64,000 nucleotides of DNA from Octopus vulgaris. Lineage: Eukaryota. Below, piece by piece: positions 62,796 to 63,215 of the stretch; within the stretch, counting starts at the first letter, position 1; every line of letters begins with the position of its first letter. The position numbers were made by a program, and so were the translations under genes. Where the stretch lies: the NCBI GenBank assembly GCA_951406725.2, contig OX597823.1, positions 42,532,001-42,596,000 on the forward strand, in the 5' to 3' direction. The notes below the pieces were generated by a model. The model was not told the origin of the DNA. It searched no databases and was given only the letters and a program-made list of their open reading frames with translations.

Positions 62796-63215
62796 GGAGG
62801 ATCCAATGCCACCCAGTACACTTCCGAAAAGAAGAAATCTGGAAGGCACCGAAGAACCTGTAAATTCTACCTGCGGAGCAAATGTTGGCATGGTGAGGAC
62901 GGCAAAAACTGCCGGTTCGCCCACTCGACACCCCGCCAGAACTTCAGGGGACTCAAAGAGAAAAGCTTTACCGAGGGAACACAAAAAATGTCTCCCAGGA
63001 AAACTTTCAAAAACGAAGTGCTCTCCTCAGATGTTCTGCGCAACGCAGCACCTGAGCAAGAGTCTTTTTTATGCATGGCGCAAAGAATTGTCCGGCAGCT
63101 AACCTGGCTACACCAAGCACAGAGAAGGAACCCTGTCCACCACTATTCAAGACCACCACAGTCAACAGACACGGGATGGCCTCCCCTAACGCCTGCACAG
63201 CCGTCACCCCAATAG
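62796..63215 (+). CDS. 3' part of ORF1 of element 3 with a CCCH zinc finger
   Basis: Frame open 62796-63215: [24 protein letters not shown]...[14 protein letters not shown]...PSPQ*. Confidence 0.8.
63065..63071 (+). promoter_or_regulatory. candidate -1 frameshift heptamer U_UUU_UUA
   Basis: GAG TCT TTT TTA TGC in the ORF1 frame; -1 frame opens after TGA at 63053-63055. Confidence 0.65.

What the first reader, a model, noticed from the sequence alone, without database searches (positions are those of the whole stretch)
63053..63215. Same slippery heptamer, frame and spacing in a distantly related LINE family (element 3)
Seen: element 3 reads CCT GAG CAA GAG TCT TTT TTA TGC ATG (PEQESFLCM); element 1 reads CCT AAG CAG GAA AAT TTT TTA GCC ATG (PKQENFLAM). 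In both, a stop in the -1 frame (TGA 63053-55; TAA 42246-48) lies exactly 9 nt before U_UUU_UUA. The EN frame is -1, ORF1 continues more than 100 nt past the heptamer, and a CCCH finger lies upstream. The rest of ORF1 is not alignable by eye and the EN domains differ strongly. Inference: independent support that the junction is a selected recoding signal across the clade, and that the Phe-Leu near the end of these ORF1s reflects the UUU UUA codons. Caveats: here an ATG (63071) overlaps the heptamer in the ORF2 frame, and no strong downstream hairpin is obvious.
Basis: partly seen in the sequence, partly recalled or inferred. Interest (0 to 1): 0.8.

Follow-up and report, generated by a model that had tools for sequence, protein, structure and literature searches.

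The report
Ribosome slip site joining LINE genes
A large group of jumping genes (LINE retrotransposons), including this broken copy, keeps the same seven-letter slippery sequence as HIV exactly where its two genes begin to overlap, so ribosomes likely slip back one base there to make the copying enzyme as an extension of the first protein.

Summary
Observation confirmed; interpretation supported and much strengthened. Element 3 is a dead, 5'-truncated copy of a LINE family whose ORF1 (Myb/SANT or PHD + CCCH fingers) overlaps ORF2 in the -1 frame. Five such families in this genome carry U6 in phase (four UUU_UUA, one UUU_UUG). In metagenome relatives picked only by the CCCH motif, 55 of 59 families with Phe-Leu spell it T TTT TTA, against 1 of 125 other Phe-Leu pairs in the same elements. 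The -1 frame has 0 stops in 3441 codons after the site and 237 in 2655 before it; 23 of 39 elements have no AUG before the endonuclease. All 6 intact exceptions carry another in-phase slippery heptamer. Corrections: the '9 nt' match is a coincidence of a deletion (families: 3, 6, 9, 9, 12 nt); the overlapping ATG is absent from the young sister family; no stimulatory structure is found for element 3. Best reading: programmed -1 frameshifting giving an ORF1-ORF2 fusion, untested in the lab. The scan reported similar LINE junctions earlier in other genomes; I found no paper on this clade (10 searches).

The parts
62796..63215 (+). 3' part of ORF1 of element 3 (5'-truncated after a TA microsatellite); this copy stops at TAG 63213-15, the family at TAA 63222-24
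62850..62927 (+). CCCH zinc finger in ORF1
   Evidence: Pfam PF00642 E 0.0076, below cut-off; family of 2396 protein clusters
63053..63055 (+). TGA closing the -1 frame just upstream of the slippery site
   Evidence: distance varies between families
63065..63071 (+). slippery heptamer U_UUU_UUA in ORF1 phase (Ser-Phe-Leu), predicted -1 shift site
63071..63073 (+). ATG in the ORF2 frame overlapping the heptamer; by-product of Leu-Cys codons, GTG in the sister family
63072..63224 (+). ORF1/ORF2 overlap, open in both frames in the family: ORF1 C-terminal helix in frame 0, low-complexity linker in frame -1
63176..63178 (+). second ORF2-frame ATG, 16 codons before the EN Asn, also present in the sister family (basis of rival 1)
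63218..64000 (+). APE endonuclease part of ORF2; premature TGA 63575-77; element continues about 2.2 kb beyond the window with a 23-nt deletion and a 2-nt insertion
42246..42264 (+). element 1 junction: TAA and U_UUU_UUA; carries a copy-specific 3-nt deletion between them
41146..42372 (+). ORF1 of element 1 (Myb/SANT-like, two CCCH-type fingers, x-F-L helix)
42249..45379 (+). ORF2 of element 1 (EN + RT, one frameshift near 43400); first Met lies after the EN Asn and Glu
59321..62560 (+). element 2, third family; truncated about 10 nt 3' of the site, but full-length family members carry U_UUU_UUA in the same phase

Best explanation
These LINEs keep U_UUU_UUA in ORF1 phase at the point where the ORF2 frame opens, and a minority of ribosomes translating ORF1 likely slip back one base there, which would make an ORF1-linker-endonuclease-RT fusion of about 1400 residues while most ribosomes finish ORF1. 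Shown: heptamer, phase, -1 frame closed before and open after the site, no conserved AUG, replacement by other slippery heptamers. Inferred: that slippage occurs; that the product in element 3's family would read ...E-S-F-(L or F)-M-H-G...; that the fusion sets an excess of ORF1p over RT as Gag-Pol does. Least certain: what stimulates the shift. One sub-lineage has a hairpin 7-9 nt downstream; for element 3's family none is found, so low-level slippage on U6A helped by slow decoding of UUA, or a protein stimulator such as the CCCH ORF1p, is the guess. Element 3 itself is a dead copy that only preserves the family's signal.
For: Own genome: families 1, 2/2b, 3 and 6 carry T TTT TTA and family 7 T TTT TTG, all in phase; EN identity of family 3 to families 1, 2b, 6 is 34-41% and they fall in different sub-clades. 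Family 6 uses AGT instead of TCT for Ser yet keeps the T. Young families 1 and 6 have no Met before the EN Asn and Glu. Other organisms: 120 loci chosen by CCCH pattern only, 104 true members, 77 clusters; 55 of 59 with FL use T TTT TTA, with 10 different preceding codons all ending in T; background 0.019 per family; other FL pairs 1 of 125. Protein level: K/E/Q/M/W, whose codons cannot end in U, precede FL in 0 of 120 proteins against 27% at neighbouring positions. -1 frame stops 237/2655 upstream, 0/3441 in the overlap; +1 frame 251/3441. All 6 intact exceptions have an in-phase G_GAU_UUU, G_GUU_UUU or A_AAA_AAC within 18 codons of the -1 stop; background 0.37% per codon; these motif classes are listed as shift sites in PMC5009743. 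G follows the heptamer in 51 of 60, as in HIV-1.
Against: No experimental evidence. No stimulatory structure for element 3 (z +0.40; family z -1.1, sister +1.6; only 4-bp stems at spacer 5-12), and only 13 of 59 elements have z < -2, while PMC7618472 says shifting above 1% almost always needs a stimulator. The closest active sister family has U_UUU_UUG in 30 of 30 fetched copies (query spanned the site), and G is said to be avoided at that position. Families 3 and 7 both have a good-context AUG 16 codons before the EN Asn. 16 of 39 elements have some Met before the EN Asn. The families are related, so the binomial P values overstate independence; the G_GW class was added after seeing the exceptions, and two of the six exceptions are sisters. 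One cluster (L261, degraded) shows no site.
Confidence: 0.84

Rival explanations
1. ORF2 is translated separately, by reinitiation after the ORF1 stop or from an internal AUG or near-cognate codon in the overlap; the U6A motif is kept for another RNA-level job such as binding by the CCCH protein. Most plausible for the sub-lineage of element 3.
For: The ORF1 stop sits 2-86 nt before the EN Asn codon in 39 of 40 elements, which suits coupling at the stop. Families 3 and 7 share an AUG 16 codons before the EN Asn in good context, and family 7 has the weaker UUG. Unconventional initiation is the favoured view for mammalian L1 ORF2 (PMC5009743 passage).
Against: It does not explain why the -1 frame stays open for a mean of 76 codons starting exactly at the motif, why the motif is in codon phase, or why lost motifs are replaced by different slippery heptamers. 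23 of 39 have no AUG before the EN Asn. The next relative P0153 lacks the Met at -16. Starting at the stop would cut into the first EN strand when the stop is 2 nt before the Asn codon.
Confidence: 0.09
2. RNA polymerase slips on the T6 run and the rare mRNAs with +1 or -2 U encode the fusion without ribosomal frameshifting.
For: The run is an indel hotspot among young family-1 copies: 23 of 59 versus 9 of 334 at other runs of six or more; in-frame fused copies exist in families 1 and 2b.
Against: Only 3 of the 23 indels restore the frame (16 are -1, 4 are -3), whereas cis-preference (recalled) would enrich fused copies. The run is exactly six U in 59 of 60 and ends in A in 59 of 60, a tRNA-level rather than polymerase-level pattern. 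Replacement sites such as G_GAU_UUU have only four U. Contigs of four short-read runs bridge the junction with T6 intact (contigs drop rare variants).
Confidence: 0.04
3. Phe-Leu is conserved for the protein helix and the codons reflect shared descent or AT bias; the junction is not a signal.
For: FL begins an amphipathic stretch in nearly all ORF1s; the window is 36.5% GC and TTTTTTA is common.
Against: Other FL pairs in the same elements are T TTT TTA in 1 of 125; carriers range from 34 to 56% GC with median EN identity 33%; TTA is 12% of Leu codons; the residue before FL changes among ten codons but never loses the final T.
Confidence: 0.02

Closest known systems
HIV-1 gag-pol -1 frameshift site (U_UUU_UUA; PMC6547452 passages)
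   Same: Identical heptamer read as Phe-Leu, upstream nucleic-acid-binding zinc-finger protein, polymerase in the -1 frame, G usually next; two products (FL and FF routes) would be expected.
   Different: Host is a non-LTR element with no protease in the Pfam scan, so the fusion would not be self-cleaved; HIV-1 has a defined stem-loop, which most of these families, element 3's included, lack.
Dictyostelium TRE5-A and TRE3-A (PMC5911963 figure legend)
   Same: APE-type non-LTR elements stated to need a -1 frameshift for ORF2.
   Different: Amoebal elements with a C-terminal zinc finger in ORF2; the passage names no slippery site or conservation; I did not see the primary papers.
Paramecium non-LTR groups 1-3 (PMC5405496 passage)
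   Same: LINE ORF2 suggested to depend on recoding.
   Different: +1 shift, reinitiation or readthrough, not -1; separate clade.
CR1-group / Jockey-superfamily LINEs (PMC4120745 and PMC13343379, term searches)
   Same: Two ORFs, ORF2 with APE endonuclease and RT only, short tandem-repeat tail.
   Different: Neither main text contains 'frameshift', 'overlap' or 'CCCH'; a Myb/SANT or PHD plus tandem-CCCH ORF1 is not among the ORF1 types in the passages seen.
Earlier scan notes on LINE junctions (unchecked AI notes)
   Same: In-phase heptamer, ORF2 in -1, no AUG; e1-9568866 and e1-9509029 mention an HIV-type site.
   Different: The vertebrate CR1 cases use U_UUA_AAC next to the ORF1 stop with an esterase ORF1; here the site opens a 130-670 nt overlap behind CCCH fingers. 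The 3'-tail pairing of e1-9829915 is not seen in this clade.

Membership tests
Programmed -1 ribosomal frameshift signal (X_XXY_YYZ type) | Heptamer X_XXY_YYZ in phase with the upstream ORF | tested here: met
   sister family 7 has Z = G
Programmed -1 ribosomal frameshift signal (X_XXY_YYZ type) | Downstream ORF in the -1 frame, open from the site onward, without its own conserved start | tested here: met
   0 stops in 3441 codons; 23 of 39 without Met before the EN Asn
Programmed -1 ribosomal frameshift signal (X_XXY_YYZ type) | Nucleotide conservation beyond what the protein needs | tested here: met
   55 of 59 versus 1 of 125; 0 of 120
Programmed -1 ribosomal frameshift signal (X_XXY_YYZ type) | 3' stimulatory hairpin or pseudoknot after a 5-9 nt spacer | tested here: inconclusive
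   Not found for element 3; z < -2 in 13 of 59 versus 3 of 60 and 4 of 59 in control windows, with a clear hairpin in one sub-lineage; tail pairing not supported
Programmed -1 ribosomal frameshift signal (X_XXY_YYZ type) | Trans-frame product demonstrated | not testable with these tools
   needs reporter assay, ribosome profiling or mass spectrometry
CR1-group LINE | ORF2 with APE endonuclease and RT, no RNase H | tested here: met
   Pfam on three intact ORF2s
CR1-group LINE | 3' end of short tandem repeats behind a small hairpin (feature recalled, from no call) | tested here: met
   tails of families 1, 2, 6, 7 end in 4-9 nt repeats; family 3 ends in an A-rich stretch
CR1-group LINE | RT groups with reference CR1/L2 elements in a tree | not testable with these tools
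   no named reference sequences available; the label 'CR1-like' rests on recalled motifs, and Proto2 or another named clade is not excluded
CR1-group LINE | ORF1 of a described type (RRM/CCHC, L1-type, PHD, esterase) | tested here: inconclusive
   family 6 has a weak PHD hit, families 1 and 7 a weak Myb/SANT hit, all with CCCH; 'CCCH' absent from PMC4120745 main text
Stop-start translational coupling (SART1-type UAAUG; recalled) | ORF2 AUG overlapping or next to the ORF1 stop | tested here: not met
   nearest ORF2-frame AUG in family 3 is 46 nt before the ORF1 stop; none in families 1 and 6

The most novel reading that the evidence does not exclude
A clade of more than two thousand LINE ORF1 families (2396 protein clusters at 50% identity) makes its reverse transcriptase as a Gag-Pol-like fusion through an HIV-type -1 frameshift, mostly without a local RNA structure; and -1 frameshifting is a general route to ORF2 in CR1-like LINEs, since two unrelated lineages in the same genome also have AUG-less -1 ORF2s behind G_GGA_AAC and G_GGU_UUA.
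Probability: 0.62. Interest if true: 0.86.

Novelty: new variant of a known kind. Interest (0 to 1): 0.77.

Why it matters
How LINEs translate ORF2 from a bicistronic RNA is a long-standing open point; the review passage seen calls the mammalian L1 route an unknown type of initiation (PMC5009743). Here a large clade gives a precise, testable answer: a seven-base site, a predicted junction peptide and natural variants (UUA, UUG, G_GAU_UUU, with and without hairpin) that can go straight into a reporter. If true, ORF2p of these elements carries the ORF1 RNA-binding fingers at its N-terminus, annotations that start ORF2 at the first Met are truncated, and LINEs join retroviruses and LTR elements in setting structural-to-enzyme ratio by frameshifting. 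The families are young and abundant in this 2.8-Gb, octopus-like genome (at least 150 copies each).

Tried and rejected
Exact 9-nt spacing as part of the signal: rejected. Long-range pairing of the junction with the 3' tail (lead from e1-9829915): 8-bp matches at +1 in families 1 and 2, but family 2b breaks it without compensation, own-tail duplex ranked first in only 4 of 14 against swapped tails with no common register, and +1 lies inside the ribosome; rejected. Local hairpin or H-type pseudoknot for element 3: none convincing. Splicing across the junction: no joint at the site in contigs of the runs laid; contigs cannot exclude minor forms. Expression: no RNA holder listed on record, run types are guesses, so no claim either way. 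Viral contigs: 0 matches to the CCCH pattern. ESM Atlas: only generic CCCH clusters below 0.9. Clade naming: the classification paper tried was not held; ORF2 search gave one named hit, Argonauta hians. Sequence look-up in earlier scan notes: nothing. Literature searches found no description of this junction; Repbase Reports, subscription journals and all supplements were not seen and could hold one.

Full report
1. Observation. In both the endonuclease frame is -1 to ORF1. TTTTTTA occurs 20 times on the + strand of this 36.5% GC window, so the motif alone means little and the question is whether independent families keep it in this phase and place.

2. What element 3 is. The window lies in a 2.8-Gb genome; the only named ORF2 relative is from the octopod Argonauta hians, so 'octopus-like' is an inference. 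Element 3 is a 5'-truncated copy, 97.4% identical over 3444 nt to a copy with an open 1039-codon ORF2. It has a private TAG in ORF1 (63213-15; the family stop is TAA 63222-24), a TGA in the endonuclease (63575-77) and two indels beyond the window. It is dead and only preserves the family's junction. Of 30 family loci, 21 had a readable junction: 16 T6A, 2 T6G, 2 T5A, 1 T7A. ORF2 holds APE endonuclease and RT only; ORF1 has a weak Myb/SANT or PHD hit followed by CCCH fingers. 'CR1-like' rests on recalled motifs; I had no named references for a tree.

3. More families in the same genome. Family 2 (element 2 is truncated just 3' of the site) has T TTT TTA in the same phase, with the -1 stop 3 nt upstream. 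Family 6, found with an outside CCCH protein as query, reads AGT TTT TTA with the stop 6 nt upstream. Family 7, the young sister of family 3 (71% EN identity), reads TCT TTT TTG in 30 of 30 fetched copies, so the overlapping ATG is GTG there (the query spanned the site). Family 1 normally has 12 nt between stop and heptamer; element 1 has a 3-nt deletion. The 'exactly 9 nt' match is therefore a coincidence; what holds is that the -1 frame opens shortly before the site. Families 1 and 6 have no Met before the endonuclease Asn and Glu, although family 1 is very young (150 listed copies identical over the query, many with an open ORF2).

4. Protein-level test. A CCCH profile finds 2396 clusters at 50% identity. 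Of 151 proteins held, 120 have FL after the last finger, 19 do not (several are cut short) and 12 were not anchored. The residue before FL is K, E, Q, M or W, whose codons cannot end in U, in 0 of 120, against 27% at positions -8 to -2. A helix N-cap preference would not explain the 14 Ala, 13 His and 5 Tyr.

5. DNA-level test in other organisms. Sixteen were dropped for profile score under 25, leaving 104, in 77 clusters at 80% identity: 55 with T TTT TTA in phase, 4 with FL in other codons, 7 with a closed ORF1 and no FL, 11 cut off too early. The codon before FL takes ten forms and always ends in T. Background in the same elements: TTT 44% of Phe, TTA 12% of Leu, third-position T 36%, together 0.019. 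Other FL pairs in these elements are T TTT TTA in 1 of 125. Carriers span 34-56% GC and a median endonuclease identity of 33%. In 45 elements with a closed ORF1, the -1 frame has 237 stops in 2655 codons upstream and 0 in 3441 between the site and the ORF1 stop, while the +1 frame has 251 in 3441. Of 40 with at least 180 open codons, 39 have the endonuclease Asn and Glu aligned in that frame; 23 of the 39 have no Met before the Asn, and the others have Mets from -1 to -150 codons. Families are related, so the very small P values printed are not independent-trial probabilities.

6. The exceptions. Of the 11 informative clusters without the site in an open ORF1, six have an intact overlap, and all six carry another in-phase heptamer within 18 codons of the -1 stop: G_GAU_UUU (L238, L281, L302, L262), G_GUU_UUU (L311), A_AAA_AAC (L264); background is 52 in 14241 codons. 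G_GA and G_GU starts and A_AAA_AAC are named as shift sites in PMC5009743 (passages). I added the G_GW class after seeing these cases, and L302 and L262 are sisters. L266 has in-phase U_UUA_AAC but a later -1 stop; L292, L304 and L351 are decayed copies that still hold TTTTTTA; L261 shows no site.

7. Stimulator. Window 63077-63140 folds no better than shuffles (z +0.40) and offers only 4-bp stems at a normal spacer. Across 59 elements, +6..+55 has z < -2 in 13, against 3 of 60 upstream and 4 of 59 further down; one sub-lineage has a clear hairpin at +7 to +9. Pairing with the element's 3' tail, suggested by an earlier scan note, is not supported. PMC7618472 (passages) says slippery sites alone raise shifting above the error rate but that more than 1% nearly always needs a stimulator, which may be a protein; PMC6547452 (passages) shows that scarce Leu-tRNA for UUA opens a second route at this heptamer. 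Low-level slippage or a protein stimulator is therefore possible but untested here.

8. Mechanism. Most likely a minority of ribosomes shift -1 at U_UUU_UUA and continue through a linker encoded in the overlap into endonuclease and RT, giving a fusion of about 1400 residues (size from in-frame fused family-1 copies), while the rest finish the ORF1 helix and stop at the edge of the endonuclease (stop 2-86 nt before the Asn codon in 39 of 40). Confidence 0.84 for the clade, lower for element 3's own sub-lineage, where the sister has UUG and both share a good-context AUG 16 codons before the Asn (absent from the next relative P0153). Rivals: reinitiation or internal initiation (0.09); polymerase slippage (0.04), prompted by an indel hotspot at the run in family 1 (23 of 59) but weakened because only 3 of the 23 restore the frame and the run is six U in 59 of 60; protein constraint or AT bias (0.02).

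9. Comparison and novelty. The mechanism is known: the heptamer is that of HIV-1. For LINEs, PMC5911963 (legend) states a -1 shift for TRE5-A and TRE3-A, PMC5405496 (passage) suggests +1 shift or readthrough in Paramecium, and PMC5009743 (passages from the first 300,000 of 449,034 characters) names none for animal LINE ORF2. PMC4120745, PMC13343379, PMC10294476 and PMC9115989 have no 'frameshift' in the main text (term searches); PMC4700185 and PMC7175516 use it only for LTR elements (passages). Ten searches found no account of this clade's junction; Repbase Reports, subscription papers and supplements were not seen. The scan has noted similar LINE junctions in other genomes, unchecked and not counted as support. 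Two further CR1-like families here have AUG-less -1 ORF2s behind G_GGA_AAC and G_GGU_UUA, which hints that the route is general. Verdict: new variant of a known kind, interest 0.77.

Noticed in passing
family of element 1 (window 42255-42264); L031-L060, L353-L392: The slippery T6 run is an indel hotspot in young copies: 23 of 59 (16 at -1, 4 at -3, 2 at -2, 1 at +1) versus 9 of 334 at other runs of six or more, all A-runs; variants occur in both SNP sub-families. Families 3 and 2b show 1 of 11 and 3 of 25. RT slippage on rU:dA next to a perfect hairpin, or assembly error; short-read contigs show no bubble. Unresolved.
   Followed up: partly
L061-L065, L129/L168: Copies with ORF1 and ORF2 fused in one frame (up to 1468 codons) through a 2-nt loss at the site, in families 1 and 2b; picked for their long frame, apparently independent events.
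   Followed up: partly
L133, L138, L149, L152: A different CR1-like family (cysteine-rich plus RRM-like ORF1 by eye) ends ORF1 with in-phase G_GGA_AAC directly before TAA; ORF2 is -1 and has no Met before the EN Glu; a very stable hairpin lies further downstream (z -5.2 for +6..+105, mononucleotide shuffles).
   Followed up: partly
L137, L140, L393-L412: Another young CR1-like family has in-phase G_GGU_UUA in the overlap (motif found in 18 of 20 copies; the script printed the register one base early) and no Met in the -1 frame up to the EN Glu in 20 of 20.
   Followed up: partly
L240, L275, L286, L299, L316, L337 (and longer stems in L250, L283, L318, L332): A sub-lineage has a GC-rich hairpin starting 7-9 nt after the heptamer, the textbook spacer.
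   Followed up: partly
L255, L258, L259, L279, L302, L262, L264, L311: The CCCH ORF1 and its slippery site also sit on a second, very divergent endonuclease lineage, where most replacements of the heptamer occur; suggests ORF1 plus signal moved between ORF2 lineages.
   Followed up: no
window 45400-45430 and 62500-62530; L149, L218, L226, L229, L231: Families 1 and 2 share an identical 3' tail core; families 3 and 7 have a variant of it that also ends an abundant short non-coding repeat, probably a SINE mobilised by these LINEs.
   Followed up: no
window 42265-42281: Perfect palindrome GCCATGTT-G-AACATGGC starts at the first base after element 1's heptamer; too close for a standard stimulator.
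   Followed up: partly
L011, L017: 2 of 21 family-3 copies with a readable junction have TTTTTTG, the state fixed in sister family 7.
   Followed up: no
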